A DNA stretch of 64,000 bases from Tubiluchus corallicola (Eukaryota; Animalia; Priapulida), in the NCBI GenBank assembly GCA_030141605.1, contig JAQGDQ010000232.1, positions 186,001 through 250,000 of the forward strand. Reading direction: 5' to 3'. Position 1 is the first letter of the stretch. Every line of letters begins with the position of its first letter. This document shows positions 9,364-59,387 of the stretch, piece by piece. A model generated the notes under the pieces. That model saw only the letters and a program-made list of their open reading frames with translations. It searched no databases and was not told where the DNA came from. Made by a program: the position numbers and the translations under genes.

Positions 9364-22666
<13,303 letters not shown>

Positions 22667-33700: not shown

Positions 33701-36610
33701 AGTTGTCAAAGTTAAATACAATCAAACAGAGTAAGATTTACCAGTATGGGAAACCTTTATTAACGATTATCTATGAAAATGCCAAACAAAAGTTGATTTG
33801 TGCAACATAGTTGAATAATTAAGTATTGCGGGACATCTTTCCCATGAATGCTTAACGAAAATGCACACAAAAATATACACACAATACACTTTTGTGCCAA
33901 AAATACAAATTCAGCAATGTGGGAGGTCTTTTTAAAGGAATGCAACCTTGTTTGTTCTACGTTTTTTAGTGTAACAAGGCTTACAAATACTAAATTCTGA
34001 AATCTAGAATTTGTACTGATTTTTTGATTTTTCTAAATACACAGCGCTGTTCCTGTACCACGTACCAAGGCTGTTTTCCATTAAATTCAGAGATACTTAA
34101 TTGACTGCACATATTGGTCAGTAAAATAAACTAGCAGTAATATTGTTGTAGGGAAGAGTTCAGGAAGTTACAGTGGTAGCACAGAGGAATGCCAAGGTGA
34201 TAACTCAGGCAGACAACTTCTTTCACGTGACATGTGACTACTTGCTGTCTCACAACGTTTCATTAAATTTTGGAATTGGTGTAGAGTAAGTCATCACGTT
34301 TGAAAGATAATCAACAATTTTTGTCATTGATTGCAGTATCTCTTTTTTCATTTCATATATAATTATAAGTCACTTGTATCATTTGTTTTATTAAAGAATT
34401 CCAAGGTTCAAATTCTTTTCTAAGTCTTCTGTTAACTGGAAAACAGAGAAATTGTCACTCAAATCTCTGTAAAACATTTGAACCATGTTATGAACAAAAC
34501 TTTTTCAGTGAGCCTCCTGTGAATTTATTAGAAGCACCTGCTATCACTAAAGAAGTTCTGGAACTGAAGATTATTCCAGACACAGACTCGAGCAAACAAA
34601 TAACTGATGCAATTGTTGGTGAAAAACTCTATCTTGCTGTAGAAATGAGTGAAGGACAAGGTAAAGAAAACAATAAAGCCAAAAGACTACTTACTTCTAT
34701 TGACTATGGAACCTAATACTGTACTTATAATAAACAGATGATAGTTAGGTTTATAGAGATATCTTTAACCTTTCATTTCGCAGCTGCTGCATTATTTGGG
34801 TAAATATAAGTCTTGGTGTGGAAAGCCTTTACCGCGGGACTCACTATTACAAGACATTTAATTTCTTGCTAGGTTTTAGTAGAGTAAAGACAATGCTTTT
34901 GGAACATAGCTGCATTTATGCAAGTGTTACCAAATTAAGCATTTTGCTATAATCTAAATACAAGCCAAGTTTAGACCAATTTGAAATAAACTCGTTTAGC
35001 TAATTAATAAAGGAGTATTTTCCTTTTTAGATGTATTTGACGACTTTTTCCTTCATTCATGTTTTGCAACCAATCAAGATAATACTGTTATTATACAACT
35101 TGTCGACGATAATGGGTAAGAAGTTCTGATTTTTCAAGCATCAATCCTTTCATTGTGTAATTTGAGTAGGAAATGCATTCATTCAAATGATTCAATATTA
35201 ACAACCATATGTTACAAGACTCTGAAGACAAATTGTTTGAAAAATATTATCTATAAAATCAGAAACAGGTAGAAATTTTTGTATTGCAGGTGTGCCAATA
35301 CAGACATCCCAAGTATGGTATTATCCCCAAGTGTTCGATCGCAACGTCGACCAAGAATGAAGTACATCAGTATTGCAGCTTTCAAGTTTCCAGAAGCAGA
35401 AACTGTCCAGTTTACTTGCCAAGCAAGGTTATGCAAGCCTGACCAGTTGCAGTGTTCATCGGTAAGTACATCTTGCAATCAATGCAAACCTGCAAATACG
35501 AATTATTAAAATGTTTATTTGTGTAAGACATTATCAGAAAAATGTTCATTTGCATGTTTTGGGTAGGTAAACTGAGCCTATAAGTACTAGACACTCCATG
35601 AAAGTTTGGAGAATCGTTATATTCATCTGCAAATGCTGTACATTCGATAAACATTTAAACAAATTACTGTTCAACAGTGTTGGGTAATAACATGTTTCTT
35701 TCTTTTTTTGCATGTTTTTTTTCCAATTCAAACATAGTCTCTGTCTAAGAACTGTTAAAACCTATTTTGCAAACCACTTGAGCAGCACCCAAAACTAGCA
35801 TATTAGACCAACCTGCTATGCTATGTCGTGTTGATATTACATACACCAAACCACATTTTACGTTTTGCGTTAGCAATGTAGATCAGTATCAGCACGAAGA
35901 AATCGTGTTCGGCGTGACGTGGATGATGCTCCAGGTGGACAAGAAAACACAGATCCAGATGAAACAGAAGTTCACAAGTCTATACGAGTGCACACGCCTA
36001 CTGACGAACTTACACCAGTTGATGAAGGCAAGCCCTTAATTTAAGCATTTTTAAGGAAAAAGTGATATAGTAATTGACACTATAACCAGTGTAAAGAATT
36101 TCGTAGATGCTCACAGGATTGGTTAGGGACAATGGTTCTTGTGTATTGTTGCATTTTCAACAATTGAGATATTCATGATGATGGCATGTACTTGGAGTTA
36201 GTCAGGAGTACACATTGATTTTATTTTATTGTTTAGGTCCTACAGATAAGCCGGATTTGACACACAGATACTGTTTCACACTTACATACTTGACAATAGC
36301 TGCAGCATTTCTGCTTGCATTGTTGATCAGCACCATAGTCTCTTGTGCTTGTTTGTGCACAAAGTACTCCAACATCTACAAAGAACGCGAGAAGCTTAGG
36401 TCACGTCATGAACGATTGCGCCAAGAAATGGCATGCTATATCAACCCTGCCATGTTCAAGATTCCACGTCCAATGGTCAGCCCTGACCCGCCAATGTCAG
36501 AATTTGAAGGGACAACAATAAGGACCGACTCACCAGCCGTGGAGAGAGATCACGAAGTTGAGAATGTAAATAATGATGGTGATCACACGTATGCAACTAT
36601 GCAGAACTAA
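30759..36610 (+). CDS. Zona pellucida (ZP)-domain single-pass membrane protein, cuticlin/dusky-like, 9 exons, about 441 aa
   Basis: Exons 30759-30794 (MWQKSLLLVFYQ), 32645-32681, 33477-33658, 34152-34285, 34509-34660, 35031-35115, 35290-35461, 35874-36027 (GC donor), 36237-36610 sum to 1326 nt in frame. Signal peptide; ZP-N (VDC...FSGLVY...C...CG...VTCDY); ZP-C (VGEKLYL, SCFA, LVDDNGC, AFKFPE..VQFTCQARLC); furin site RNRVRR; TM helix; cytoplasmic tail. Confidence 0.88.
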
Positions 36611-38273
36611 TGTAAATAAGCAATGTTTGTTAGTTTGTACATTTTTCAGTGCAAGTTATTTTTGTAGCTTCTTCTCCAAGTTGTCAATTTGTCATGTTTG
36701 TAAATAACGCACTATTTTTGTTTTAGTTTGCAAGAGAGTCAGCAGTTAGTTTAGTTCCATGCTTAATTGCTAGTATGTGGTGTGGACTGACCTAATTTGT
36801 GGTTGAAAATTTTAAATGATGATTTTTATTTTGCAGAAAATTATAACAGATGAACAGGAGACAGGATTAGTTTAGGCTTATTTTTTTAAAGAGAATATTC
36901 ATGTCTTAACAGTAATGATGTTTTGAAGGTACATTGGAGAAACTTGTACATAATGCTCTTAGCATTATTTCTTGAAATGTTAACTTTACATCGTCTGGTA
37001 TTGCAGACAAAACTTCTTTAAGAAAAAACATAACTGGCGCTTTATTAGAAACATTGCGTAAAATTTCTAGAAATACACGTGCGTCATCAAATATTTTACC
37101 ACTTGCTTCTATTACATAGTCAGTATGATCCTAGTCAATTGATTTGTGCAATAAATTTAATAAGACAATTAAGATTTGGGAGTCTACAGTAACACTGTGT
37201 ATAGTGTACAGGATATGAGATACATGACCAAATTTATGTCGCATTTAACTGTTAATACGTGTACATGATTGTAAAAAACAGGTACAGCTTTTAAAAGGAC
37301 TTAAATGTATAAGGCAGACAATAAACATGAAGCATCACCTAGAGAAAGTGAAGGAAAACGACTGCATGCATACAATTGCTTTGCAAATTGGTTTGATCTG
37401 CCAACTTGACAGTAACATGTTGCCAGCCAGCAAAAAAAAAAGAAAAAACACGCATACCAAGACATTCTTTACGGAGTATAATTTCACAGAGAAAAATTTT
37501 CTGATTTTGAAAGTGTAGTTTATGTGCTCCTTTAGGTTAGCCATTATATTAATCTGTTCAAACCACTGAACTGTCTGAACGCCTGTAGGTAGAAAAGAAA
37601 AACTGACGAACTTCAACATCTCCTTAGTTTGTATAATCTATAAAACTGAAATTACTGACTTAAAAGTTTAATGACATTGGATTTCATTATCTGCACTGAC
37701 AATAAACTTATATAAAATGGTGCAGATAATAAACTTATATAAAATATGGCCAAGATGCGGGAAAAATTTTGTTAGGAGTGTGCACATTAGCTATGCATTG
37801 ATAAGTCAATTTTCAAGACCCCATCTGAGGCAGAGAAAAACAGGAGCAGAGAGTGAACAGATAAAGAGAGCATTTGATGCATAGATTTTGTGCAACTTTC
37901 TATGGTAGCTTCTACCATCAAACGTTGCATCGATTCTACTGAGAAATTATTGTAGCTGTGGCACTTGTGGATTACTTCCCATGAGCGTTCTTACATAACA
38001 GTGGAAGTGGAGCGATAGGCCAATGTGTTAGACGTTAAAAATGAAAAACTAACCACAAAAGTGGTAAAAACAATTTTATTATAAAAATGATTTGCATAAT
38101 TTGACATTTTTTAAAAGTACTAATAATTGTAATATGCAAATTATTTAATGGAAAGAATTTCCAATCGACAAAATTTGTGTAAGAGTTTCAAAATTACAAG
38201 CATAATTTAAATTAAGTTATTTTTAAGAAAGTTTGGATCTTTTGTTGAAACAGCATGACAAAGAACAGAATTC

Positions 38274-38387: not shown

Positions 38388-41300
38388 CTAATCAGCTAAT
38401 GCCTTTACTTTGTAGATTATCATAGAAAGTATTTGCATAAGTAAAACAAACATGTAAGCAGAAAAAGTAATAATATAAACCGGAGAGACAGATAAAGTTC
38501 GATCAAGAAACCATGATACATGTGTAGACTTATCTAAGTCATAAATTATTCCTACAACTATGTAAACAAAGTTTACACAAAAGATGAAAATAGTTGAAAT
38601 ATTTCGTATATTCTTCATCTCACTCAAAACCTAAAACAAAAAAATCTTCTTTAGAACCTTACAATGGCCTGGAAAATGGATATTTTGCTTAAAAATTACA
38701 TTGTTTGAGTTTTAACTGAGTAATGGATTTTGGTTTGACTTTTTGACTTGCAAAGTTTAGGATTCATTGTTTTTGCACAGTTATTAAAGCATTTTATAAA
38801 TTCTTATTTCCTTTATTTACCAGAAGGCAGGGATTACAACATTTATCTTAACATACCTTTTTATGACGTTGTTTTGTCACTGAACTTGGGGCGAGGTAGG
38901 AAGATATGAGATTTTTCCAGAAAATTACTTCCCGTTCATCAAGCATTTCATAATCTTGAGAGTTTTCTGAAGTGTTCAAAGCTGATTACTATAGAAAAAT
39001 CATATTATTATAAAGATCTGACATACAAAGCACATAACTAAGCAAACAGTAACTTTCCAAGAATAAGAATCTGTACTAGGAGCACAAATATGAGTTTAGG
39101 ATTAACTGCATTTAATTCTTAGTTATGAATGATGTAACATGGAAAAAAATCATGTAGTATTGAATTCCATTGTAACTTAAAACTAAAACAGTATGCTAAT
39201 TTTGCAATATTTTTGCATGAATATTAGGTAAACAGTAGAAGTTCGAATTAGTTTAAGCAGTATTGCATAATCATGTGAAACAATGATGTGCTTATGAAAA
39301 ATCACAAAGTTAACCAGTTACGTCATAACTTTTAAGTAAATGGCTGCAACCACTGAACATGAAAATTTCTATACAGAAGTAGTGTAACTGAACTTTATCC
39401 TTACAGATAGTTTTTGCAAATTCTTTTTATATTTTTCTAAATTTAAGTGATAATAGTAAAATAAACCCAACAAGCTAAGTGACTCATCTTTTCTTTGAAT
39501 AGTGCTTAGGCACTTTATAGCACCGAAATATAGCTTAGAACCAATCGTGGAAGCATTTTTGGTGCAAAAAATTAACTTTTGTTCTAGACATTTTCATTAA
39601 AAATGAACACTGAAATGATTCTCTTTCTGTACCTGTGTTACAGTAACAGTCAGCCAAAATTTTCACATCAGGTTTTATGGAAAATGTATCATTGTACATT
39701 TTGCATCCGTCTATTGATTCTAATAACTTGGTAACAATTTTCCTGCTGAGAGGTCTACCAGGTTTGGAGAAAAAATACAACAGAGTGCAAAAGCTTTTTA
39801 ACAACAACCATTTGATCTTCTGGTACATGGTATTCGCTTTGCCTAAAACGAGAAAATTCTGAGTAAATAAAAAATCAACATTAGTGTAAAAGTACAGCAA
39901 TCCTGGCAGGTCACTGCTGAGCGATGAGGTGACTTGTACACGTGATGGGGGCTGTGCATTTTCCCCCGAGGCTATGCAGTGAGGCTATGTTTACCAATTC
40001 AGGTAATTTCGGCCAAATGTTGGTGAAGTGGTCATCAGATTTTACGGGAAAGGACTCCAATGGAAATATAGTTTCTTTTAAGCTTTAAAGATACATTAGC
40101 TTCTATTAGTTTACAGACTACCCATAATTGGTGGCATTTTGGTCATAAATGTCTTCAGCTGGTATATATTGTAACTCATGAGACACAATTATCAACGGTG
40201 TGCTCGGGCAGTTGTTATAATTGTCAGCTAAATTTTTTTAGAGGTAGAGGTGCTTACGTGTTATGTTAAAGTTCAAAAACTAATACGGTTCTATTTAAAC
40301 CCTATTTCACATTGTTGTCATGGCTAAAGAACTGACCCCCAGCAGAAATTTGTCGGGAAAGATCTGCAAAAATGGGGACAGTAAATTGATGTAATTCTGA
40401 ATGTGATATTCAAATATTTTAATATTTTTTACATGTGATTATATAGCAGAACTTACTAGAGATCCTGGTAAACTTTTTATTCCTAATTGTAAGTGAACAA
40501 GCCTGTTGACTGCCTGAGAATTCCCGAGTTCCCCAGGAAATGATGTTCATGTTACATATGGCATAAATCAGTGTTATCAAATAATAAGATGGTGCTCCAA
40601 GAACAAAAACTATCTGAAATATAAAGCAGATAGCTTAGGATTGACGTTGATCAACGATAAAGACAATTTTCAACTGATATAAATTTATTGGATAAGAAAA
40701 ACAAAAGTTTAATAATGTATAAAAGATTAGTTACATCGGTTAGTAAAAATGAACGACTAATAAAAATAGCTCTAAAAACTTCTCTGTTTGTCAAATTTTG
40801 AACAATTAAAAATGGCAAAAAACTTTCATTATTATAGCAGCTGATTTTATAAGAAGCTTAATATATTTTATTGATTTTTAAGAGTGAGACATTTCGAACA
40901 AAAAAAATCACAAAAAAAACTTTTGTTGATTATTTCCTGAGAAAACTTCATTATCAAAAGTTATGGAATGTGTTTAATTAAACTTCAACTTACCAGCATT
41001 ACCAAGTTGAGATCGTTTCTGTGACACACAAAGCTAGCAATGAAAGGTGCAAAACATCCTAGCAGTAAAAACGCTGAACTTGACATGTGACTGGCAGCGA
41101 AGATATTGATAAACAAGCCCACCATTGACAAGAAACTTAAAATGCCGTAAAAAATGGTCAAAAATTTCGCATAAGCAAACTGAAAATAAAATTGGGTACT
41201 ATAAAATCAGATACTATAATTTGTTAATATAAAAGAAAGCTAATATTAATAGACCGGCAAAAAATCCATGTTTTCCTAACTGCCCAGTGCAAAAGTCTTC

Positions 41301-44300
41301 CATTTGTCGGTTAGTTAAGGTAATGCTGATACTGTTTACTTATTTGTATTCAAAAGGTATTAACAATACCATTAGTGTTTGTCAAAACTATTTGCGACAA
41401 AGGTGGAATTTTATTAGAAAACATTAAAAAAATTAAATTTACTGCCTCAGTGCAAAATCATGTATTCAGTCTTTTAACAGAGTTTTCACTGTATGCTTTC
41501 ATTAAAGTAGGCAGTCCGACAGCAACATAAATTATTAAAAAAGTGTATGGCAACTCACTTTTAAGTTAGAGTCAACAGTAAAGAATTAAAAGTACAATAT
41601 GCAATAAATAATAAGGACAATATAGACAACATATCAAAAATAGAAAATATTATTAACTATAGAGATAATACATGAGACAGCTTTTACAACAAATCCTTCT
41701 TTAAAAGCTAGTACAGTACCTTGCCCCATTTAGTGATTTTTTCACTATGCCCATCTAGTGATTTTTTCAAGGTGCTGCAGGACTTACTTAAGTATTGAAT
41801 TATATTAATACATTATTTAAGTATTGATATCAGCTGGAGTACAATAAATTAACTGGCATATTTACCTGTATTTTTTCTGAAGTGCACAAGCAAACGAGCA
41901 TAAATAAGACAGCCGGAACTCCTGTTATGACAGCTCCCGAGAAGACTAGATCTTGTTGACATGAAATAGTAAATAACTGAAACAGAGAAAAAACACAATA
42001 CCAGATTTTAGTTTGCAAACAAAAAAATGCATGCAACAACAACTACAATTGTTTTATTTATGCTCACATATTATTTCATTATGCATACCTGTCAAGCTAA
42101 CTTTGTTTCATGAAGTAATTCTGAAAATGCTAAATAAATTTAACAAAAATGTCTGAGCTAGCCAAACTATGATGAAAATAAAAATAAAATTAGCTAAAAC
42201 AAAAACCAGGCAATCAAAAAAGAAAACAATTGTTGAACAGTTTTTACTTATTTTTTCTTAAAAAACATTTGCATGTGAAAGCTCTTGGCAGAGCTTTTTT
42301 TATTAATTCTATTGCTAAAAATTTTTTTAGCTGCTGCAGAATGACTGTGATCTATATTTTGTTGGTTTATGGTATATTGATAAATCAGTTGGTAATTTCC
42401 TAAACTGCATAAACATTATTTAGTATAATATTGATCAAAACATAAGGACAGAAGAAAAAGAAGAACAGTAAATGTCCTCTGACATGGGCATAGTTGGTTA
42501 CAGCCTATTTATGAAGCCTCGACACCTGAAGAAGACAGGTGGCTAGCCGGTTTTTCGGCTCCCTTTCTTCCTCCAGTATATGATCAGGTACTCAATTAGG
42601 GCTGGCTACGTTTACACAGATCGCCAGAAGGTTTAATTTGAGTGGTAAGTAGCTCAAAACCTCTACAATGAGTGGGATTCGAACCCAGAACCTCTGGATT
42701 GACAATCAGTGGCATAAGTGGGACGCCATGCCTTCTGACAGTACAACATACAGAGCATACAATGAATTTTTCTGCTATGCTTTGGTCATCAATACGTTGT
42801 AACACTGTAAGAATTTACTTACAATATTGTTAGAAATAACAAAGCCATGCATGAGAACAAACAGTGTTATACCCGGCGTGAGTAAGCCACTGATTACATT
42901 CAGGAAATGATATAATAGGAACCAGATTCTGAAAAGATTGCATGGTAGTTGTCTTCCGCTTTCTGAAAAAACAACAAGATTTTGGCATGAACTCATCATT
43001 GACAGCAGTGAAATATGCTTGCATTTAAGGTAAAAATAAGAAAAGGTATCCTGCTGTAATATTTGACACCTAGCATAATTTAATTAACAGCTCATTCAAA
43101 TGTATATTTTCCAATGTTTCCAGCACTCCCTTTTATGATTATAAATACAACAGCATAATTATATACCTTTTAAAATGAACTATTAAGTGCTAGTATATTT
43201 CGATTTCTTTGGGTAACAGAAAACAAGAGATTTGAGATATTTATTGGCGCTAGGTGCACAAATGCTGTGTATAAACACATTCTGCTGTGTTTTAAATGAT
43301 TCTGCAGCTAAAATAATAGGTATACATGTTAATACTATGTCAACTAACAGAATATAGTAAATAGCAAATATTTAAAGGTGAAGATATATATAATAATAAC
43401 AGTTTTATAATAACATGCCAACTAAGAGCTTTAAATTCGATCTCCGATGGGTGCATGTTAATGATTTTACCCAACTGCAGTAAATGATATAAAATAATAG
43501 TGTTGCTATGGGCTCTCTAGCAATGCAGTACTCTTGTTAAATTATTTAGTACATACATTTGGTGCAAGAACAATAATTGATTTGTCACAGCATATACTTG
43601 GTGACTGAAGTTAAGCAGTGTTGGGTTTGGACAGTAACTTGATGGTGGGGTTTATCTTGTTTAGGTTAGATGTAAGCCCTTCAGATGTAAACTAGGTTAA
43701 GACACTCCCATAGGCTTACTGTCACTTCTTAGAAGGTACCTTGATAATGTGCTAGATTCCACTACAAACACTTACATTAAATAGGCAATCATTTAGTGCT
43801 GAATTTCAATAGGCAATATGTCAAACTCTACAAAAATTAATACCTGCAAGGAAAGCTATGTTATTAGCTTGAGAAGAAGGACTCCATCGTCTTCTCTGTT
43901 TGTAAAATTCCTCTAACGACTCTGGGGCATGAGTACCAGCAAGGGCGTCAGCGCAATACCCGGTTCTTTTACCACTGTGCCTAACCAAGCTAGTGAGCCA
44001 TCTATCCTCTCCTAATATATACAGAAATTATTTGTACAAGTGTATTTTGCCGTACATATGCTTATCAAAATAATCATTACAGATCTTTAACAATGTTTTT
44101 TGGTCATGCACAACACATATATTCATTAGTTTGCTGATAAAAAAACTGTATTTATGTTGCAGCAACAAATGACATCAACTTCTGTGAAACATTGCAACAA
44201 AGTTCTGATTACCATAAGAATGAGAAAAGCTTTGAGAAAGATTTGAGTCATCATTAGGCAAAGCTTTGTTAAAAAAAGATTTTCTCCTGAGTCTATTGCG

Positions 44301-44534
44301 CAAACGGAAATGCAGTTTTTCTATATACGACATTTTGTGCTAAGCCACAGTATAATACAGTGACATTAATTATTGTCATTGTGTCACTACCAATGTTATT
44401 TATTTACCAAGACGATTGCGTAAATGGGGAGTAAACAAGTCTATGTATGCATCTATGTCTTTTATTTGCATAAGCATAAGCAGTTTTATTGTGGTAAAAG
44501 AGCATCATAGTCATATACACCATATATACATATA

Positions 44535-44609
<75 letters not shown>

Positions 44610-47600
44610 ATGTGTGTGTGAAAGACAGGCACTAGTAAATTGAACATGAAGATCATACAAGTGGAAGCACAGACAGAACAGTTCTTCATGAAACTCATAC
44701 AGTGACAAAACGAATTTCTCCAGTTTTAAACAAACAAAAACTTTAAACCTTTGTAACTGCTGATGAGGTTTGCAACTGCATTGACATTCAGAATGTGTAA
44801 AAGCTAAGAACACCTTAAAAATAAAAGTAAGTGATTGAATCACAATCTTAAACCACTTCAAATTATTGATAATTGCCAGAACGTGTTCTTCATTAAAGAT
44901 TACATATAATGAAGGTTAAAAGCTTAATATTTAGAATATATTTTTGGGGAAAACTACCTCACCAGTTTTTGTTAAACATGTATAGATGTGCTCAAGTTTG
45001 ATTTTACTGTATTTAATCTCTTATCAAACACGAAACATGCAGAAACTTATTTTTCAAATACAACTCAAATTGCCATTCTGTTAGTCATGCATGTGAGTAA
45101 CGGCTATCAATTTCATTCAACCAAATGTTAAAAATGGTATTGTGCAAAATTAATGTTTACATAAACAATAAACATTACAGCTAAAATGATTAAATTATGC
45201 ATTTCATAAACAACCCACAATATAATAGATTTGATTAAATTTTTATTAGAAAAATCCCGCATTTCTAAATAAATTTATTATTATTATTATTTATTCTAGT
45301 ATTATTATTAATACCATTAATAAAATATTAATTACCGTATTTTCCCATGTATAAGAGACCCTTTTTTGCTCAGAATTTTCACTTTAAAAATTGGGGGTCT
45401 CTTTTTTGCTCAGAATTTTCACTTTAAAAATAGGGGGTCTCTTATACATGGGAGTAAGTCTTTTCAATAAGATGCATAAATTGTGACACTAATGATTTTA
45501 AAGAAATAAGTGCTCTACAACTGTTTTATTTCGAATAATTATAGCTTCCATTCAATAAATCTTCTCCATGGCTAAATTCTAATGATAAAATTAATGTACC
45601 GGGTAAGTTATTATTTTTTTAAATGTCTCTCTGGTATTGGAGAGAAATCGATTGTTCTGCAGCCAATCAACGCATCTGCATAAGCTCTCTGCATGCCCGT
45701 CGACGTCATTGATACGTCGGCAGAGGTCAACGAGATGAGTCAGCCTAAGCTGCAGTTGGGTCCTCAAGGCATGGAATGGTGTAAAGCCAGAGGTCATTAT
45801 TAAATCTTTCAAGAAGTGTGGCATCTCCAATGCCATGGACGGCACAGAGGACAATGCCATTTTTGAGCAGAGTGACTCCTCTGATGATGAACTGGCTGGA
45901 ATTGCTGAAGGTCTGACTCCAGTTGATATTTTTGATGAGAGTGATGAGGAATTTAATGATTTCTATGATGAATAAAGTTATTCATTACCAAAAAACTTTT
46001 TTCCAGAATTTTTGCCTAAAAATTGAAGGGGTCTCTTATACACAAGGGTCTCTTATACATGGGAAAATACGGTATTGAGCATTAATTATAGTTTTCATAT
46101 TTTGTTTTTTGTTCTATTATTATTGCTTGCATGAATAATCTTAGTTTGTGTCATGTTTTTGTTTTGTTCCAAATTTTAAATCATGCTATATATATTTTCT
46201 GACAATAAATGCTAGTGTGCAGACGAAATGTTGGATTTTTCTAATAAAACTTATTATATTGCGGGTTGTTTATGAAGCAGACATTGTTTTTGTTATAACA
46301 AATGTAAAAACTTTATTACATTCTACATGCTTAGTATTCAACAATATAAAAACTTCTTTGTACCTTGATCATATAACAAGAACTGTATTCCTCGTTCTGT
46401 GTTTTTAGAGTATGTTTGTTTGACATTTTCAGCCATTAGTGCACTAGCTCTGTACAGACTGAAGCATCCTGGACAGCACAACACACTACCAAGTAACGAC
46501 TCAGTTGACTTGTATAACCAATGAGCCATAGCATATTCAGTTTTTTGAAACCAAATAATAGGACCTAGACAATATAAAAGATAAGAAGTAGAATAGATTA
46601 AAGACGCAAACAGTTGTCATAGAATGGATTAGTCTTTTCACTGCATCTCTACAATGTTTTGCAGACTAAATAGATTGTCAGTCAAAAGCCAATTAGTCCA
46701 AAAATATTAAATCAAAGAAGGATCAGAATTCATCACCATTTTCAGGCATTCTTTTTAACTAACTACTACACACTTGTTTTTATTTATCTCTCATGTAAGT
46801 GAGAGATTAATTCTAAATCAAAAACTAATCTAGGACTTCTGAAATGCCCCAAAAAATTTACTAAACCAACAAAGCATTTAATCACTAAATGAGCATCTAT
46901 TACCTGTTTATTATTGTCTTGTTTACATCAGGTCAAAATCAGTAGTAATAGTTAATGATTGTTAAATTAGCAAATGACCTAATCATCTCTTCAGCTTTAA
47001 GCCATAAACAAGTTATAAATAAGCTACAAACTATATCCGATCAGTTTCACACTACAAACTAGATGGTAATCACTGATTGCCAATATTTCTTGGTATAATT
47101 TACAAATGATTGATAGACTGTTGATCAATTTCAACAATGTGGGAACAGAACTTTTTAAAGGGGAGGGGGTAGTTAGGCAGTAGCAGCCAGCAGCAGTAAA
47201 CTGTGATATTCGTAGTTACGATAACAAATATACATAAGATCAGAAGCATCTTTGGTGGACGTCCTGATTAACGCCTGTGTGTTTACTGAAGCTACCAAGC
47301 TCTTGATAGGTGCAGTAAAGCCCATGAGTCGTTATTGTGTAACTGTGTTTCGTGTTTCTCGACCAGGTGTTCAGTCTTCTGAGGGCTAAAACTGAATGCT
47401 CTCCTTATGTTACAGAAACTGGCATTGCTAGGATCCGACCAAGCTAAGCAGTTTGACAACTTTTTCAGTAGCTTTGCTTATACGGATATCGAGCTAAGCA
47501 TTATACTACATGCGGGTACCAGGTGAATGTGTTTTTGAAAAAACAAGTAGGCAAACAATATCCAGATGACCTCTTATGCACAAAGTCTTGCATGTAATAA

Positions 47601-50600
47601 GGGAATTGTGGATCTTTCTAAGAAAAAAATGAAAGAGGCAAATAGTATACTTGCCATTACTATATTTTCAAGTGGCCACCTTTGCACTTAATGCCCTTTG
47701 TTCCCGAATCCATGATCAATTTAGTCATTTTTTGAGTATGTAATAGAAAGTTTTTATACCTGAACCAGTCGGATAGATTCGTCCACATACAACTCCTAGA
47801 GATCTATCTTTCTCCATTGTAGTGACTAGCTTAGTGAGTGAATTTGGTTCAAAGTTAATATCACCATCAATGGCAAGTATGTAGCAATCATCTTGGTTTT
47901 GATTTGGATAAAACTGGTGTTTCCAGTCTAACAAGTAATGTATGTACATGACCTGTAGAGTACACACAAAAGTACTAAATATTAATGTTCAAGCTTCATA
48001 ACAAATAATGCATTTTCATAAAATGGTAGCATGGTTCATAGGCAACAAGCAATTTGAATATTTTAATGTTACCATAAAATTATCACACAGTACTTGTGTT
48101 AAAATTTGGAGTTGTCTTACACAAGTTTAAAAAATGATCTCGACAGAAATTAAAATAAATTTTTGGGAAATAATAGCTAACGTTTCCGTAATGGTTGATA
48201 AGAAACTAAGATGCTTCAGCGGTGTAATTAGAGCTTCTGGCACCCGAGCAGCACTTGAGCTTGTCTCCCCCTGATGAAAAATGCATAGTAACAACGTCTT
48301 TGTGATTTTAGATTTGTAAAATTTAGCGTTGCTGCGTTGCAGTTATGATAAGACAATTGTGGAGGTAAACTGAGAAAATAATAAAGCTATTGATTTGATA
48401 ATAATAATGAAAAGATTTGTTTGTGAAAAAGTAATTTTTCCCTGTATGTTTCCATAGCTGCGATAGGCCTACTCAGAAGCTTGGCCAAATGTTAGCATAG
48501 GAAAGAACATGATTATAAATGTACTTCACAGTAAATTAAAGACATACATTGTGCAGAAATCTTAAAAACAAAGAAACGAAAATCTGTGAAATATTGCAAA
48601 GACATTAAATCATTAACTGTCATCTAATTCATCTTTCTTTTTAGCTTTCTTTTAAGAGCAATGGGCTATAAGCAGTGTTTTCATGAAAAATTAAATGGTA
48701 TCACGCATTTTACTTTTTGTTAGGAAAATTCTCAAACACGTTGAACAACATTTAAATGTTTGACAAATTAATGTGAGGAAAGTCACAAGCCAGCATCAAA
48801 CAGCTGATTAGCAATCTTCAATTGTTTCTAAACACATAACACATACAACAAGAGACACACAAATTATGACAAAGAAATTATAGGTCATGACGCCTGCAAC
48901 AGTAACTAACAGAGAAAATTAGGCAATGATATTTTGCCTACTGTGCACAGGCTGTATAAGTTTTGTAACACATTTCTACTGTTCTGAGAGAATCAACCTT
49001 TATAATGTACTGATCAAAGTGCTGCCCGGAGGGCCACTCTTTTGCTCACCTAGCTATGCCACTGAGGTATTAGAACAACAGTACCTGCTCATTAACTATA
49101 TTCACTAACAAGTTATACATGCATAATAAACTAAGCAAATTTTGCAAAAAAAAGTTATAAATGACATTGAGTTTTCTCTACAGACAAGTTAAGACACATT
49201 TTTACCTGACTCCATCTTTTCTTGTTTCGTATTTTAGCTTTATCTTTCAAATGCAACACAAGGGTCATTCCGCTAAGTAGCGTGAATGTGCACTGATTTC
49301 CATAAGGTGTATCAAGAAACTTGAAATTGTTACTGTCAGATCTGCATAGAAAATAGATTAACACCTATTAGGTAACTAACTCACAGATGTTTGAACATGA
49401 ATAGACAATAAACAAATTGACGTTCTCAAGTGAAATTGCATGGCTATATGTACAAAATGTCAACTAAACACAAGATGTTGCACTTACTTAAGCAGGCTGC
49501 AGAGAACTTGCAAAAAGTTCTTCACATATTCATTATATGTCTTTCGTCCATGTTTACAATGCACATCTTTGCTCAATGCATCGTCAAAAAATACGTGAAC
49601 TGAAATACCAACACCAATAAATATGTAACAATGTATATATAATGAGGTAAGAGTGTCAACACAAAAATTTTCTAACTTAGTCAAGCTAACAAATATTGAA
49701 TCAAATGAACATTGATTAATTAATTAAATTAGAAATTGTACTTCAGCCATGATTAATTAATAGACAATTACAAGCCACAATCTTGATGAGGTTCGCCCAT
49801 TCTGGAATTGGTGAAAAATCTCATATTTAAGCATTTATGGTAAGTTTGCTTAATGTGAAGCATCAGCTAAGCAGCACACTAATTAATTCAGCAAATACTT
49901 ACAAAAGGTCAGTTTCAACTGCAAAATGTTTTAACAGTCTGCACACATTGTAGAATCTCTCCAAACAAAATGACATTTATACTGTCTTATATGGGCGCTA
50001 CAGTTGGGCATCGAATAAAGAATTATTTACTACCAATACTCCAAACAACAAGAAAACAGAATGTCCTGTTGCTCAGATTATAAGAAATATGAGTAAAAAA
50101 TTAAGAAATGGTGCAGAACCTATTCTATCTGCAACTTGTAAGAAAACAACTTTATATCTAACATTAGCTATTGCCCTTCTAGTGACGACTAAAGTTGATC
50201 TCCGATGTCCAGATATCATTATTATCTCAAACTCTAATTTTGCTTTGAACTCTTTAAATTTTTTCCTGTCACTTGCCTAAATTCCAAGGGGAATTCCATT
50301 TGCTGGCACTGTAATTAGTTAGTTAATTGTAACTATAGGCCACATGAGTTTTGTATTTCTTTTTCTGAACTCTAATGTTTCCCATTGGTTGTAATTGCAA
50401 TAACCTTATTATTTTGCATTATCTAATGGAATCTATGAATAAACAAAAATGAGGACCTAATTTGTTTGGGGTCTCTAAATCATTCCAAAGTACGTTATCT
50501 AGAAACATAGAAATTTAATAAAAAGATAAAGTAAAGAGCTATACAAACACTGTCAGACTGTAACTAGGTTACCTTCAGATTCATAATAGATAGTATCTTG

Positions 50601-51917
50601 TTTGTGTGGTCCTCTTAGTAGTTTTTCTGTTCTTCTAATAAATTGATCCTCATCACACCTATAAAACATATGGTAGACTTATGCGAGTTTTGCAACCTAT
50701 AAAATATTATGTCTTACAGTATATCCTGGTACAGAAGTGTACAAAGAAATTAGAAATTTGTCACAAATAAGTATAGAAATAACGAATTTATGGAAAATAC
50801 ATGGTATTTATAAGACATTTACTCTCACAGTTTAAGACAAGGGCACTAATAACTAAGCGAAAAATACAGCAAACAGAGGTATCATATCAATTCACCTGAA
50901 AAACATGTAACATTTAACGTAAACCCATAATTATTAAATTAGAATGCATGTCAAAGGAAAAACCAATCTAAACACAAGCAAGGCTCATTCTCAGAGATTA
51001 GTACAACAAACTTGCAACGTCACCACATCTCTCATTCTAGTAATTGGCTAGCATAGGTTCTTCACGAGTCTTCATTGTGAAATGCAAAAGCTTTGCTTAG
51101 ACAAATTGGTAATAATTGTCATTTGTACACCACACTCTGAGACGCATTTGTTTCAACTGAGTGGGGGGGGGGCGAATCACAAACCAAATGGAAAAATGTA
51201 TGTCATGGACTACTACAACTCCTATAATCTAGTCTATATAAGCATCCATGGATGTTAGTCAAATCGATATTTTAGTCAGTTAGGTGCAGTGGGGTGATTC
51301 AAATGGTCAAGAGTGTCCGAGCTACTGTCCTTACTAGAATTCATATCGTAACTGTTTTTCGAGTATTGTACATTAGTGTACATACTATTTGGTAATCTTA
51401 CTTTACTATCTTTTTTCTTTGTTTTCTAGCAAAACGACTATCTTTTTGGCATATAAAACACATATCAAAGAAAATACATCTAAAACAAAACAATACAACT
51501 GAAGTAGTAAATTCATTTAAACCAAAAACCAAAACAAAAACACCCACACACAAGTATAATTGTATACTTTTCATCTTTGAAAATCAGCAATAAGGCCTAC
51601 CTAGAATTAGTAACAAATACATCACTAAAAACAATAGCAACAATCAATATTAAAAACACGTGTAATACATACAGTCTTTTATTGCAAGACAAGACTAATT
51701 TGTCCATAATCATAAATAAAAACCTTATACTGTCAAGCAAAATATAATGTTCTCACCTCAAGATAGATTTTAACAAGGTTTCCATCTCTTCTATTGTCTC
51801 ATGCCACATGGTTGCACAAATGTAAACTTTCACTGGTATTTGGTGCAAAAACTCAAACTCAGAAAGTCCACAGAGCAGATCAGGGACCATCTGTATAGTA
51901 ACATTCTGTTTTGGCAT
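38388..51917 (-). CDS. CHS: Chitin synthase (GT2), divergent compact form, copy A, 14 exons, about 742 aa
   Basis: Exons 51917-51757, 50658-50573, 49599-49488, 49341-49206, 47952-47760, 46564-46364, 44011-43844, 42962-42823, 41976-41866, 41179-40994, 40613-40457, 39842-39633, 38981-38857, 38630-38388 sum to 2229 nt in frame with no stops. Motifs: [76 protein letters not shown]. The start codon is uncertain (51917 or 51890). Confidence 0.9.
42455..42735 (-). mobile_element. tRNA-derived SINE in a chitin synthase intron (paralogous copy about 57350-57585)
   Basis: Minus strand shows B box GGGTTCGAATCCC, a central segment CAGCCCTAATTGAGTACCTGA...GGAGGAAGAAAGG and a (TTC)-rich tail. Present in both duplicates. 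Confidence 0.7.
43560..43795 (+). mobile_element. 5S rRNA-derived SINE (paralogous copy about 58268-58500)
   Basis: TGACTGAAGTTAAGCAGTGTTGGGTTTGGACAGTAACTTGATGG is 5S-like. The body is shared with the copy at 1925-2135. Confidence 0.65.
44539..44620. repeat. (TG)n microsatellite
   Basis: Directly visible. Confidence 0.97.
45335..46072 (+). mobile_element. Tc1/mariner superfamily (Tc2/pogo-like) internal-deletion derivative
   Basis: Perfect 29-bp TIR CCGTATTTTCCCATGTATAAGAGACCCTT; TA TSD at 45333-45334 and 46073-46074; transposase C-terminal remnant at 45757-45975 (WVLKAWNGVKPEVIIKSFKKCGISNAMDGTED plus acidic tail); internal 40-bp tandem duplication at 45361-45440; empty site in copy B near 59905. 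Confidence 0.93.
48217..49064. mobile_element. Old hAT-like MITE in chitin synthase intron 4 (paralogous copy 61847-62697)
   Basis: Termini CAG(C/T)GG(T/C)GTAATT... and ...CCTAGCTATGCCACTG are imperfect TIRs. Flanks AGATGCTA and AGGTATTA look like a decayed 8-bp TSD. Confidence 0.6.
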
Positions 51918-52699
51918 AGTTTTAGTAAAGTTATCCTTATTATGCACTTTTTAGTGTGAAATTATCTTTATTATATGTAGCTGTTATGGCGTTGCGTTTG
52001 TGTTACACGAGTTGTATTATTCAATCGCTGTGCACATATATGACGTTGAACTTAATCGGATGTTACATATACAATCACAAGCGAGTACATAGATTTCGTC
52101 ATAGCGAGTATACATTTCTTAGATTTCATTCTGAACAAATAAGTGATCAAGGACATAGAAGCCTATATAGCACATTGACATCACTGGGCCTACTATATGG
52201 CCTTACTAACATCGTAATACTATATGATAAACTGTTCAAACAGGAACTAATGATTAGACTAGACAGACTGTGTAAATTACACACTTGTTTAAACATTAAT
52301 CCTTGAAGTTGTCAAACTTTCGCAAAGAAAGAAATGACCAAGACATTGAAAAATGCAACCATGCTGTTGGTGAACGTAATGACTTGAGTGAATGGAACAA
52401 AGTATTAAACTATCATGAAATCAACTGAGATTCATACAATAACAGTACTGTACAGACCCTTTAATCAAATGGACAGTCAGAATTAATTACTCTTTTAGCA
52501 TTGCCCACTGCAAACAATAAGGCAGTTTCATTGGTCTGAGCTATACACCTTATATACTATATAATACAGTGAACATACAGTGGACAAGCCTTAACTTAAT
52601 ATGACTGATATGAATTGAAAACTTTTATATTATTCACTATTAGTCAAGCAGGACAAGAAGGAAAAAATGAAAGTTTACAATAAATGTTTAATTTAATAT

Positions 52700-53043
52700 C
52701 TTGTTTCAGTCCTTATTTCAGTTATCTTCAGTTTGATTTTATTATTATTATTATTATGCGCTTATTATTAATTATTACTGTGTATGAATTGTACTAACAC
52801 GTTATAAGCATATCATTATCAATTTTATGTCATTCGTAACAATTTAGTTTTTATTATAAGCAGTACTAACACTAATGCACTGTAGCATAGCGCCTTTAAA
52901 AAAATGTTCATCACTAACCAAAGGGCAGCTGACTAGATGACCAATTGGTCTTTCGCTGCCCTTTCTTCACATTTTTGTTGCTAAATTAATTGTATTGTAA
53001 CTGTGTGTGTTAAAAGATAAATAAAAGATTATTATTATTATTA
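52700..53043 (+). mobile_element. 3' end of a non-LTR retrotransposon (L2/CR1-like)
   Basis: Stem-loop AAAGGGCAGC...GACCAATTGGTC...GCTGCCCTTT (52920-52964), then AATAAA and an (ATT)n tail. The 5' boundary is approximate. Confidence 0.55.
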
Positions 53044-53371
53044 CCTGCTAATCTGTCACTAAACTTGAATGTAGACAACGTTTAAGTTTAGTTTGTCTAC
53101 AAGTTACTACAAAATTATAATTTATTATAATTTAACACTTTAAGAATTCCAAATTGACAAAATTTGCGTAAGAGTTTCAAAATTCAAATTAAGTAATTTT
53201 TAAGATAGTTTGGATCTTTCGTTGAAACAGCATTATGTGACAAAGAACAGTATTCTTTATTACAGTGTTTGCAAGTTCAGAAAACTGACATGACTCTTTG
53301 AGGAAAGAGTAACAGTCACCCGCACAGCAGAATGCTGCTATGGGTTTAGATTTTAAATTCCTAGCGACTTG

Positions 53372-56300
53372 CTAATCAGCTAATGCCTTTACTTTGTAGA
53401 TTATCATGGAAAGTATTTGCATAAGTAAAACAAACATGTAAGCAGAAAAAGTAATAATATAAACTGGAGAGACAGATTCAGTTCGATCAAGAAACCATGA
53501 TACATGTGTAGACTTATCTAAGTCATAACTTATTCCGACAATTACATAAACAAAGTTTATGCAAAAGATGAAAATAGTTGAAATATTTCGTATATTCTTC
53601 ATCTCACTCAAAACCTAAAACAAAAAATCTTCTTTAGAACCTTACAATGGCCTGGAAAATGGACATTTTGCTTAAAAAATTACATCGTTTTGAGTTTTAA
53701 CTGAGTAATGGATTTTGGTTTGACTTTTTGACTTGCAAAGTTTAGGATTCATTGTTTTTGCTGTTATTAAAGCATTTTATAAATTCTTATTTCCTTTATT
53801 TACCAGAAGGCAGGGATTACAACATTTATCTTAACATACCTTTTTATGATGTTGTTTTGTAACTGAACTTGGGGCGAGGTAGGATGATATGAGATTTTTC
53901 CAGAAAATTACTTCCCGTTCATCAAGCGTTTCATAATCTTGAGAGTTTTCTGAAGTGTTCAAAGCTGATTACTATAGAAAAATCATATTATTATAAAGAT
54001 CTGACATACAAAGCACATAACTAAACAAACAGTAACTTTCCAAGAATAAGAATCTGTACCAGGAGCACAAACATGAGTTTAGGATTAACTGCATTTAATT
54101 CTTAGTTATGAATGATGTAACATGCAAAAAAATCATGTAGTATTGAATTCCATTTTAACTTAAAACCAAAACAGTATGCTAATTTTGTAATATTTTTGCA
54201 TGAGTATTAGGTAAACAGTAGAAGTTCGAATTAGTATAAGCAGTATTGCATAATCATGTGAAACAATGATGTGCTTATGAAAAATCACAAAGTTAACCAG
54301 TTACGTCATAACTTTTAAGTAAATGGCTGCTACCACTGAACATGAAAATTTCTATACAGAAGTAGTGTAACTGAACTTTATCCTTACAGATAGTTTTTGC
54401 AAATTCTTTTTATATTTTTCTAAATTTAAGTGATAATAGTAAAATAAACCCAACAAGCTAAGTGACTCATCTTTTCTTTGAATAGTGCTTAGGCACTTTA
54501 TAGCACCGAAATATAGCTTAGAACCAATTGTGGAAGCATTTTTGGTGCAAAAAATTAACTTTTGTTCTAGACATTTTCATTAAAAATGAATACTGCAAAT
54601 ACGCAGAAAGAAGTGATTCTATTTCTGTACCTGTGTTACAGTAACAGTCAGTCAAAATTTTCACATCAGGTTTCGTGGAAAACGTATCATTGTACATTTT
54701 GCATCCGTCTATTGATTCTAATAACTTGGTAACAATTTTCCTGCTGAGAGGTCTACTAGGTTTGGAGAAAAAATACAACAGAGTGCAAAAGCTTTTTAAC
54801 AACAACCATTTGATCTTCTGGTACATGGTATTCGCTTTGCCTAAAACGAGAAAATTCTGAGTAAATCAAAAATCAACATTAGTGTAAAGTACAGCAATCC
54901 TGGCAGGTTACTGCTGAGCGATGAGGTGACTTGTACACGTGATGGGGGCTGTGCATTTTCCCCCCGAGGCTATGCAGTGAGGCTATGTTTATCAATTCAG
55001 GTAATTTCGGCCAAATGTTGGTGAAGTGGTTCATCAGCTTGTACGGGAAAGGACTCCGATGGAAATATAGTTTCTTTTAAGCTTTAAAGATACATTAGCT
55101 TCTATTAGTTTACAGACTACCCATGATTGGTGTCATTACAACAGTCATAAATGTCTTTCAGCTGGTATACATTGCAACTCATGAGACAGAATTGTCAACG
55201 GTGTGCTCGGGCAATTGCTATAATTGTCAGCTAAATTTTTCTAGGTGTAGAGGTGCTTACGTGTAACGTTAAAGTTCAAAAACTAATACGATTCTATTTA
55301 AATTCTATTACACATTGTTGTCATGGCTAAAGAACTGAACCCCAGCAGAAATTTTTCGGCAAAGATCTGTAAGAATGGGGAGAGTACATATATGTAACTC
55401 TGAATACGATATTAAAATATTTCGATATTTTTTTTGTTTGTGATTATATAGCAGAACTTACTAGAGATCTTGGTAAACTTTTTATTCCTAATTGTAAGTG
55501 AACAAGCCTGTTGACTGCCCGAGAATTCCCGAGTTCCCCAGGAAATTATGTTCATGTTACATATGGCATAAATCAGTGTTATCAAATAATAAGATGGTGC
55601 TCCAAGAATAAAAACTATCTGAAATATAAAGCAGATAACTTAGGACCAACATTGATAAATGATAAAGACAATTTGCCACTGATACAAGTTTAATGGATAA
55701 GAAAGACAAAAGTTTAATAATGAATAAAAGATCAGTTACACCAGTAATTGTTCTAGAAAAAGTGAACGACTAATAAAAAGAGCTCTAAAAACTTCTCTGT
55801 TTGTCAAATTTTGAACAATTAAAAATGGCAAAAACTTTCATTATTATAGCAGCTGATCTGATAAGAAGCATAATATATTTTATTGGTTTTCAAGGGGGAG
55901 ACATTTGGAATGAAAAAATCACAAAAAACTTTTGTTGATTAATTTCTGAGATACGGAGAAAACATTATTTTCAAAAGTTATGTAATGTGTTTAAACTTCA
56001 ACTTACCAGCATTACCAAGTTGAGATCGCTTCTGTGACACACAATGCTAGCAATGAAAGGTGCAAAACATCCTAGCAGTAAAAATGCTGAACTTGACATG
56101 TGACTGGCAGTGAAGATGTTAACAAACAAGCCCAACATTGACAAGAAACTTAAAATTCCATAAAAAACGGTCAAAAATTTCGCATAAGCAAACTGAAAAT
56201 AAAATTGGGTACTATAAAATCAGGTACTATAGATTGTCAACATAAAAGAAAGCTAATATTAATAGACCGGCAAAAAAATCCATGTTTTCCTACTACAAGT

Positions 56301-59300: not shown

Positions 59301-59318
59301 TTATATATATATATATAT

Positions 59319-59387
<69 letters not shown>

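What the first reader, a model, noticed from the sequence alone, without database searches (positions are those of the whole stretch)
38388..53140. Minimal chitin synthase of about 740 aa that appears to lack the entire N-terminal multi-TM domain
Seen: copy A is an intact 14-exon ORF that begins only about 20-30 residues before ICATMWHE, the start of the catalytic domain. An in-frame TAA lies at 51951-51953, and only about 1.2 kb separates this exon from the 3' end of copy B, with no TM-coding exons recognisable there. The C-terminus also ends right after the last TM helix. Established: arthropod and nematode chitin synthases are about 1300-1600 aa with an N-terminal domain A of many TM helices. 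Inference: this is a half-size animal chitin synthase (catalytic domain plus translocation channel only) retained in an expanded tandem family, possibly with different localisation, regulation or product length.
Basis: partly seen in the sequence, partly recalled or inferred. Interest (0 to 1): 0.82.

Follow-up and report, generated by a model that had tools for sequence, protein, structure and literature searches.

The report
Half-size animal chitin synthase gene pair
An unidentified animal carries two tandem chitin-synthase genes, and the one that lies whole in view has no room in front of it for the large membrane domain that starts other animal chitin synthases, so it likely encodes a half-size enzyme of about 740 residues that would make and export chitin without that domain, which is predicted to have a transporter-like fold.

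Summary
Observation confirmed. Copy A is an intact 14-exon minus-strand frame (13 GT-AG introns, 742 aa from ATG 51917) with all chitin-synthase motifs. The 1,454 nt between copy B's stop and that ATG cannot hold domain A, and profile searches find none. Signs that the ATG is a true start: weak acceptors in front of exon 1, an A-rich leader, and the array's strongest CpG patch just upstream, as at MCM6's 5' end. A and B are under purifying selection (dN/dS 0.25). Both also stop right after the last helix, with a likely decayed tail exon 195 nt behind the stop. In a tick stand-in model, solved fungal/oomycete enzymes superpose from where copy A begins, and the missing domain matches SLC35/DMT transporters. 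Not shown: any transcript, copy B's 5' end (outside the window), activity, the organism. Short database records are mostly split models, which is also a warning. About 68% that a short gene is real. New variant of a known kind.

The parts
51757..51917 (-). Copy A exon 1, coding part from the first in-frame ATG (second ATG at 51890); holds ICATMWHE
   Evidence: matches relatives only from KVYICATMWHE on
51951..52150 (-). CpG-retaining, A-rich patch just upstream of the ATG: likely promoter / 5' leader; in-frame stops at 51953, 51986, 52019
   Evidence: 9 CpG, o/e 1.68, against 0.41 in the gene body; composition; sequence
50573..50658 (-). Copy A exon 2
49488..49599 (-). Copy A exon 3 (FFDDA)
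49206..49341 (-). Copy A exon 4 (KKRWSQ)
47760..47952 (-). Copy A exon 5 (DGD)
46364..46564 (-). Copy A exon 6 (QKTEY, CCPGCF)
   Evidence: PF03142 35.2 bits, cut-off 27
43844..44011 (-). Copy A exon 7 (EDRWL, QRRRW)
42823..42962 (-). Copy A exon 8 (first hydrophobic segment of the C-terminal block)
41866..41976 (-). Copy A exon 9 (hydrophobic segment)
40994..41179 (-). Copy A exon 10 (two hydrophobic segments)
40457..40613 (-). Copy A exon 11 (hydrophobic segment, SWGTRE)
39633..39842 (-). Copy A exon 12 (divergent loop; placed by splice sites, frame and conservation in B, not by the profile)
   Evidence: missed by the profile
38857..38981 (-). Copy A exon 13
38388..38630 (-). Copy A exon 14 (last two hydrophobic segments, stop TAG); AATAAA 109 nt behind the stop
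38160..38192 (-). Likely decayed start of the ancestral tail exon of copy A (reads FETLTQILS), no AG in front, behind the poly(A) signal
   Evidence: top score of 60,947 positions, 19.2 bits
53372..64000 (-). Copy B, exons 3-14 (63230 down to 53372), intact; exons 1-2 lie beyond the window
53149..53181 (-). Same likely decayed tail block behind copy B; A/B homology ends just after it (53142 / 38153)
   Evidence: 16.0 bits, second of 60,947
45333..46074 (.). Pogo/Tigger-like insertion with terminal inverted repeats in intron 6 of copy A, absent from B
   Evidence: (joint 45332-46073); family name recalled

Best explanation
Copy A is an intact chitin-synthase gene under purifying selection that likely starts at its own promoter just upstream of ATG 51917 and would make a stand-alone enzyme of 733-742 residues, predicted to polymerise UDP-GlcNAc and push the chain out through its C-terminal helices as fungal and oomycete enzymes do, without the N-terminal membrane domain A. 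Shown: the frame, the motifs, the lack of room for domain A, selection on both copies, the early stop in both copies. Inferred: the start site, expression, activity. Likely history: a fast-evolving lineage of animal (type II-like) chitin synthases lost domain A and then the cytoplasmic tail (the tail exon lost its acceptor and a poly(A) signal in the old intron now ends the transcript); the short gene then duplicated head to tail as a unit of about 15 kb (dS about 0.08), so copy B would be short too. With no signal peptide or N-terminal helices, the catalytic domain would fold in the cytosol and the first C-terminal helix would target it to the membrane, the layout of yeast Chs1 (established for that enzyme, PMC10409773).
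For: (1) Gap of 1,454 nt, part of it B's 3' end and a high-copy repeat, against about 430 residues (1,300 coding nt plus introns) for domain A; no domain-A signal by profile or by 10 short blocks, while controls work. (2) In-frame-compatible acceptors before CATMWHE score 1.6 (51890), 1.8 (51832), -0.5 (51905) and 3.7 (a GAG at 51851) against 2.6-11.3 for the 13 true acceptors left out in turn; the one strong acceptor (52130, 7.3) runs into stops. (3) The 50 nt before each ATG are 26-28% T; before the 13 true acceptors 34-54%. (4) Both gene bodies are CpG-poor (o/e 0.41-0.42); 51951-52150 holds 9 CpG, the top of 124 windows (mean 2.2), against 0-6 before 25 internal exons; MCM6 shows the same 5' retention. 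(5) A vs B: dN/dS 0.25, P 4e-7; 0 indels in 1,980 exon nt against 92 in 7,705 intron nt; a neutral branch is rejected (P 0.011 and 1e-7 by two tests). (6) Tick stand-in model (pLDDT 87): solved chitin synthases superpose from residue 525-529 on (Z 21-25, rmsd about 3 A, 447-461 aligned), and copy A's match begins at residue 536. (7) Yeast Chs1 without its first 340 residues is active, and has only six helices, all behind the catalytic domain (PMC10409773, passages). (8) Trimming at the other end too: tail 6 aa against median 164; WGTRE-to-last-helix 204 aa against median 266 in 58 relatives.
Against: No transcript seen. Copy B's start is outside the window. The CpG patch was first noticed by eye, the grid happened to sit on its maximum, and over 8 grids the count is 5-9 (top alone in 5, tied in 1); methylation is inferred from depletion. 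The acceptor model rests on 13 sites, and 28% of intronic decoys score as high as 51890. Copy A departs from 21 of 127 near-invariant columns, and has Gly325 where 99 of 111 relatives and copy B have Glu. All complete relatives examined have domain A, and short records are mostly annotation splits. In Drosophila even Kkv/Chs2 chimeras stay in the ER, and the authors suspect that both ends take part in oligomerisation (PMC12431666, passages). The structure is of a tick protein, 39% identical, not of copy A.
Confidence: 0.55

Rival explanations
1. One long gene with two alternative 3' halves: domain-A exons lie beyond 64000 and are spliced either to block B or, skipping 13 kb or more and B's poly(A) site, to block A, giving full-size enzymes.
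For: Explains selection on both blocks and agrees with every complete relative having domain A. CAG acceptors at 51890 and 51832 would enter the frame just before the conserved domain and score only slightly below the weakest true acceptor. Relatives break at this linker (Patella split; Ixodes partial records), so an intron there is plausible. Unchecked notes report other variable-exon genes in this genome.
Against: Needs skipping of 13-14 exons and a kept AATAAA. Sequence before exon 1 is T-poor and CpG-rich, unlike the 13 other intron ends. The conserved linker that precedes CATMWHE in relatives is not detectable in exon 1.
Confidence: 0.15
2. The short gene is real but not autonomous: it works in a dimer with a full-length chitin synthase or with a separately encoded domain A, or it makes only short chito-oligomers.
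For: Solved chitin synthases are dimers through C-terminal helices that copy A keeps (PMC10409773, PMC12653383, passages). 21 of 127 near-invariant positions are changed. Domain A folds as a self-contained unit (pTM 0.90), so it could exist apart.
Against: No direct evidence; no genome is held in which to look for partners. All catalytic and gate motifs are kept.
Confidence: 0.13
3. Copy A is a 5'-truncated duplicate of a full-length copy B that is silent or has only lately lost function.
For: A high-copy repeat sits at the junction (52.7-53.1 kb), as expected for unequal crossing-over; a second version of 52445-52576 in a DNA run leaves the window's sequence at 52576, which may mark the unit's edge. 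Gly325 in A replaces a conserved Glu. Exons 3-6 differ at only 6 of 642 nt, so gene conversion could have refreshed A.
Against: No stop, frameshift or broken splice site in A; about 10 frame-breaking indels and about 69 amino-acid-changing differences expected if one branch were neutral, 0 and about 30 seen; A's branch (0.015) is not longer than B's (0.032); of 28 differences the commoner residue is A's in 10, B's in 13, tied in 5.
Confidence: 0.12
4. Assembly artefact: A and B are two haplotypes of one locus joined in tandem, which cut the front off A.
For: Marine invertebrates can be very heterozygous (own knowledge); no listed contig was seen to span the junction.
Against: A separate DNA run holds both A-like pieces (about 0.4-1.4% different in three listed pieces, 3.6% in a fourth) and a 13%-different version of one and the same interval, and differs by about 1% in the single-copy flank; A and B introns differ by 9%.
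Confidence: 0.05

Closest known systems
Metazoan type II chitin synthases (Zakrzewski et al. 2014, PMC3942024; best named hits: tick CHS of Hyalomma/Ornithodoros/Ixodes, Saccostrea chs-2-like XP_061190012, Lingula XP_013405480)
   Same: Same catalytic motifs and spacing (CATMWHE to QRRRW 301 aa against median 310 in 131 relatives), same 5+2 hydrophobic segments behind the catalytic domain, SWGTRE, no SAM domain; 32-33% identity over about 700 residues.
   Different: No domain A (PF23000; ten predicted helices in tick and insect enzymes, PMC13219254 passages), no myosin head, almost no tail, shorter loop; very long branch (2.88 changes per column).
Division-1 fungal and oomycete chitin synthases with solved structures (S. 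cerevisiae Chs1 8K3U/7XS6, P. sojae Chs1 7WJM, C. albicans Chs2 7STL)
   Same: Layout: soluble start, GT-A domain, then all membrane helices; the part of an animal enzyme that copy A keeps is the part that superposes on them.
   Different: Distant by sequence (exon 6 E about 0.001); they have a long soluble N-terminal region that copy A lacks; copy A is an intron-rich animal gene, so the likeness is convergence by loss, not transfer.
Bacterial division-1 chitin synthases with a short N-terminus (Goncalves et al. 2016, PMC5122149, passages)
   Same: Precedent for a chitin synthase that begins close to the catalytic domain.
   Different: Different division, horizontally acquired, activity untested in that paper.
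Short animal chitin-synthase database records (e.g. Patella vulgata XP_050419061.2, 1,145 aa; Gigantopelta XP_041374239.1; Ixodes partial records)
   Same: Begin 9-128 residues before CATMWHE (18 of 122 proteins).
   Different: Two are labelled partial and 14 visibly begin inside the conserved linker or the end of domain A; the Patella record is one half of a split model. Two (Gigantopelta, Callosobruchus) begin with unrelated residues and were not resolved; both have long tails.

Membership tests
Chitin synthase (GT2, PF03142) | Chitin_synth_2 domain | tested here: met
   Exon 6 alone scores 35.2 bits (cut-off 27); exons 5 and 7 match the flanking profile parts below cut-off
Chitin synthase (GT2, PF03142) | QxxEY, EDRxL, QRRRW and WGTRE motifs in order (PMC12653383, PMC8002005, passages) | tested here: met
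   QKTEY, EDRWL (309), QRRRW (346), SWGTRE (535), also DGD and CCPGCF; 106 of 127 near-invariant columns kept
Chitin synthase (GT2, PF03142) | C-terminal membrane block that forms the channel | tested here: met
   Seven hydrophobic segments by a hydropathy scan; profile hits on 6 of 7 exons
Chitin synthase (GT2, PF03142) | Processive synthesis of chitin from UDP-GlcNAc | not testable with these tools
   Needs an assay
Canonical metazoan chitin synthase (A-B-C architecture) | N-terminal multi-helix domain A | tested here: not met
   Absent from the window between the copies; DNA beyond 64000 could not be read, so this holds for copy A as a stand-alone gene. I therefore file it as a variant, not as a canonical member.
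Metazoan type II clade | Groups with type II sequences in a rooted tree | tested here: inconclusive
   Quick tree only, no type I or fungal rows, long branch, midpoint root; the 20 hits that were named are from ticks, insects, nematodes, molluscs, a brachiopod and chordates
Metazoan type II clade | No C-terminal SAM domain (PMC3942024, PMC10216261) | tested here: met
   The frame ends 6 residues after the last helix in both copies; a truncated type I enzyme would pass this too
Lophotrochozoan groups A-C | N-terminal myosin motor domain | tested here: not met
   No room or reading frame before exon 1
Insect class A (CHS1/Kkv) | Coiled coil after WGTRE | not tested
   No coiled-coil prediction was run; the loop is shorter than in all but the shortest 5% of 58 relatives

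The most novel reading that the evidence does not exclude
A lineage of animals has evolved, expresses and has duplicated a minimal chitin synthase trimmed at both ends to the catalytic-plus-channel core; it makes chitin on its own, which shows that the SLC35/DMT transporter-fold domain fused to all other animal chitin synthases is a detachable accessory module rather than part of the synthesis machine.
Probability: 0.45. Interest if true: 0.72.

Novelty: new variant of a known kind. Interest (0 to 1): 0.52.

Why it matters
The role of domain A, a third of every described animal chitin synthase, is open, and no animal enzyme appears among solved structures (library up to April 2026). A natural, selected enzyme without it would be a ready-made deletion experiment and a small target for expression and cryo-EM. 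The stand-in models add a concrete hypothesis: the lost domain has the fold of nucleotide and nucleotide-sugar transporters (SLC35B1 Z 16.2, rmsd 4.4 A, 282 of 295 aligned; the next five rows are also DMT-type carriers), in line with Pfam's name for PF23000. Comparing short and full enzymes would test whether that domain handles UDP or substrate, trafficking, oligomer assembly or fibre form. If instead the copies are alternative 3' halves of one gene, that too would be an unusual layout; if A is a dying duplicate, it is ordinary.

Tried and rejected
No whole genome is held, so copy B's 5' end and other paralogs could not be read. RNA: no RNA holder listed; the run guessed to be RNA gave only five short partial matches; neither is evidence on expression. 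DNA contigs do not cover 51882-52349, so the paralog's start codon region was not seen. Word-index searches with single exons were nearly blind (1 hit; none for an MCM6 exon), so the organism was not identified; notes calling it a marine worm are unchecked. The alignment search was led by a tick protein, capped at 1,369 aa and showed 120 of 2,495 hits; the exhaustive search showed 150 of 645 with best single-stretch identity 61%: no close ortholog seen, but short enzymes further down the lists are not excluded. The domain-A training set held one row (P0002) whose upstream part is a second catalytic domain; its tblastn hits on exons 4-7 are not domain A. A by-eye likeness of exon 1's 'LLCGL' to the linker motif was rejected (no hit). 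TATAAA at 52629 with TCAGTC 21 nt later was considered as promoter; spacing is short and I do not rely on it. Short-block scans can give 21 bits by chance (intron 7), so the tail block counts only because it lies at the predicted place in both copies. The careful tree did not finish. Rfam: nothing in 36500-64000. Foldseek alone gave no match at E <= 0.001 for domain A. No model of copy A itself was made and no complex was predicted. Ten literature searches showed no paper describing an animal chitin synthase without domain A; the library lacks most subscription journals, and the supplement of PMC3942024, which lists domain architectures, could not be searched.
Full report
What is there. The window is AT-rich animal DNA (33% GC). 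A self-comparison shows a head-to-tail duplication: 38153-50516 matches 53142-64000 at 81-93%. I built copy A exon by exon from the minus-strand sequence. Fourteen exons with 13 GT-AG introns give 753 codons without a stop, closed upstream by TAA at 51951-51953; ATGs at 51917 and 51890 give 742 or 733 aa. ICATMWHE, KKRWSQ, DGD, QKTEY, CCPGCF, EDRWL, QRRRW and SWGTRE are present, followed by seven hydrophobic segments. Exon 6 passes the Pfam cut-off for Chitin_synth_2. Copy B has exons 3-14 at equal lengths with intact splice sites; its first two exons fall just outside the window.

Is domain A missing? Between B's stop and ATG 51917 lie 1,454 nt, which include B's 3' end and a high-copy repeat; domain A needs about 430 residues. 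A profile from 37 relatives found nothing in six frames of the window, while the C-terminal control found 6 of 7 exons in each copy. The profile detects 19 of 45 held-out exon-sized pieces, so it could miss very divergent exons, but not for lack of room. Ten short blocks across domain A and its linker ranked no better than 27th in the gap; of four control blocks two ranked first, one third to fourth and one was missed. Pfam found nothing in the 11 frames of the gap that I tested. Domain A, if it belongs to this locus, must lie beyond copy B.

First exon or internal exon? Three indirect tests point to a first exon. A splice-acceptor model from the gene's 13 acceptors scores the usable sites before the conserved domain at -0.5 to 1.8 (CAG) and 3.7 (a GAG), against 2.6-11.3 for true sites; the one strong site, 52130, leads into stops. 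The 50 nt before the ATGs are A-rich and 26-28% T, the 13 true intron ends 34-54% T. Both gene bodies are CpG-depleted (o/e 0.41-0.42), the usual trace of gene-body methylation (own knowledge), and the richest 200-nt window of the array outside a transposon lies 34-233 nt upstream of ATG 51917 (9 CpG, mean 2.2, n = 124; 0-6 before 25 internal exons); the 5' end of the MCM6 gene in this window shows the same retention. I noticed the CpGs by eye first, and the count varies from 5 to 9 with the grid. Seven extra CpGs are unlikely to arise in 9% of divergence, so the patch likely predates the duplication, which suggests that B is short too (inference). None of this replaces a transcript: no RNA run is listed, and contigs of a DNA run do not cover the start region, though they show second versions about 4-6% different at 51729-51835 and 52445-52576.

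Is copy A alive? A and B differ at 62 of 1,980 coding nt and 28 of 659 residues; dN/dS is 0.25 (P 4e-7). Introns differ at 691 of 7,705 aligned nt with 92 indels; exons have none. If one copy had been neutral since duplication, about 10 frame-breaking indels and about 69 replacement changes would be expected; 0 and about 30 are seen (intron indel rates probably overstate exon rates, and the counting method ignores transition bias). Against: A has Gly at 325 where B and 99 of 111 relatives have Glu, and A departs from 21 of 127 near-invariant columns.

The C-terminus. Both copies stop 6 residues after the point where 95 relatives continue for a median of 164, and both keep AATAAA 109-111 nt downstream. 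The 11-residue block that opens the tail in relatives scores best in the whole window at minus 38192 and minus 53181, about 195 nt behind each stop (19.2 and 16.0 bits, next 11.0, of 60,947 positions). A GT donor precedes the last six codons, but no AG precedes the block in either copy. I read this as a tail exon lost before the duplication by acceptor decay and intronic polyadenylation (inference; chance scores of 21 bits occur elsewhere, so the position carries the argument).

Relatives. An exhaustive search with exon 6 gave 645 proteins; of the 150 shown the best single-stretch identity is 61%. Copy A is 30-41% identical to the top 20; named best hits are tick, oyster, brachiopod, wasp and clam enzymes. 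In a quick tree of 57 rows the pair sits on a branch of 2.88 changes per column with no reliable position. Of 122 proteins with both motifs, 18 begin within 130 residues of CATMWHE; two are labelled partial, 14 start inside the linker or the end of domain A, and two are unresolved. Several share clusters with longer proteins, and the Patella vulgata record is half of a split model whose other half is domain A. So I found no verified ortholog with this architecture, and also a reminder that missing domain A is usually an artefact. Here, unlike those records, the claim rests on contiguous DNA.

Mechanism. Copy A could not be folded as one chain, so I modelled a tick enzyme with domain A, the catalytic domain and the first membrane block (pLDDT 87). 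Yeast, Candida and Phytophthora structures superpose from residue 525-529 onward in 15 of the 18 chitin-synthase rows... more exactly, 16 of 18 such rows start at 525-529 and two pick up a few residues near the N-terminus (Z 21-25); copy A's similarity starts at 536. The yeast enzyme has six helices, all behind the catalytic domain, and is active without its first 340 residues (PMC10409773, passages; review PMC12653383, passages). The kept part is therefore predicted to be a complete synthesis-and-export unit. Hyaluronan and cellulose synthases superpose from residue 460, so a short stretch before the catalytic domain that copy A lacks has a counterpart in those enzymes. Domain A alone (pLDDT 90) matches human SLC35B1 (Z 16.2, 282 aligned, 4.4 A) and then five other DMT-type carriers among 48,161 chains; a shared fold shows no function. 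Caution from flies: Kkv needs WGTRE for ER exit but not its coiled coil (PMC9894549, passages), and Kkv/Chs2 chimeras fail (PMC12431666, passages).

Literature. PMC3942024 (parts 1-2 of 4 read) describes membrane helices on both sides of the catalytic domain in metazoan enzymes, myosin-head loss and tandem copies in Lottia; PMC8002005 and PMC13219254 (passages) give the A-B-C layout and ten N-terminal helices; PMC8476170 and PMC12460157 (passages) report expansions or several paralogs in tubeworms and chaetognaths; PMC5122149 (passages) notes short N-termini in bacterial enzymes; PMC10216261 and PMC10234404 (passages) had nothing on this point. Tandem expansion is thus known; loss of domain A was not found in ten searches.

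Verdict. Real feature; new variant of a known kind. About 0.68 that a short gene exists (0.55 autonomous, 0.13 partner-dependent or oligomer-making), 0.15 long-range splicing, 0.12 dead duplicate, 0.05 assembly artefact. Interest 0.52; about 0.7 if a transcript and activity confirm it.

Noticed in passing
stored protein P0175, residues 30-458 (tick chitin synthase domain A): Domain A of animal chitin synthases is predicted to have the SLC35/DMT transporter fold (SLC35B1 Z 16.2). Pfam already calls PF23000 a putative transporter domain; one literature search showed no paper on it.
   Followed up: partly
window 45333-46074: Pogo/Tigger-like non-autonomous element with inverted repeats and an acidic transposase C-terminal remnant in intron 6 of copy A; empty site in copy B and in a DNA run.
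   Followed up: partly
window 38387-38298 and 53371-53192 (minus): After the TAG-C stop the frame stays open for 30 codons in A and 60 in B with a shared CCAGDC stretch; stop-codon readthrough was not tested.
   Followed up: no
window 46364-49599 vs 60197-63230: Exons 3-6 differ at only 6 of 642 nt (exon 5 at none) while exons 7, 10 and 14 differ at 11-13 each; introns 11-12 in the call's numbering near the 3' end are also very alike (1-2%); patchy gene conversion is possible.
   Followed up: no
window 44520-44620 and 59270-59390: At the matching place in intron 6, copy A has a (CA)n and copy B a (TA)n microsatellite.
   Followed up: no
window 33458-36607 (+): Cuticlin-like ZP-domain gene ending tail to tail with copy A (CUT_N 34 bits); an extracellular-matrix neighbour, link untested.
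   Followed up: partly
window 9364-21450 (+): MCM6-like gene (recognised from recalled motifs); CpG-retaining 5' end and depleted body, used as control.
   Followed up: partly
window about 970-4450 (minus): Exons of what looks like a major-facilitator transporter gene, head to head with MCM6 (label recalled).
   Followed up: no
P0267 and P0282 (Patella vulgata records): One chitin synthase is annotated as two neighbouring genes, domain A and the rest; the P. caerulea ortholog is a single 1,720-aa protein.
   Followed up: yes
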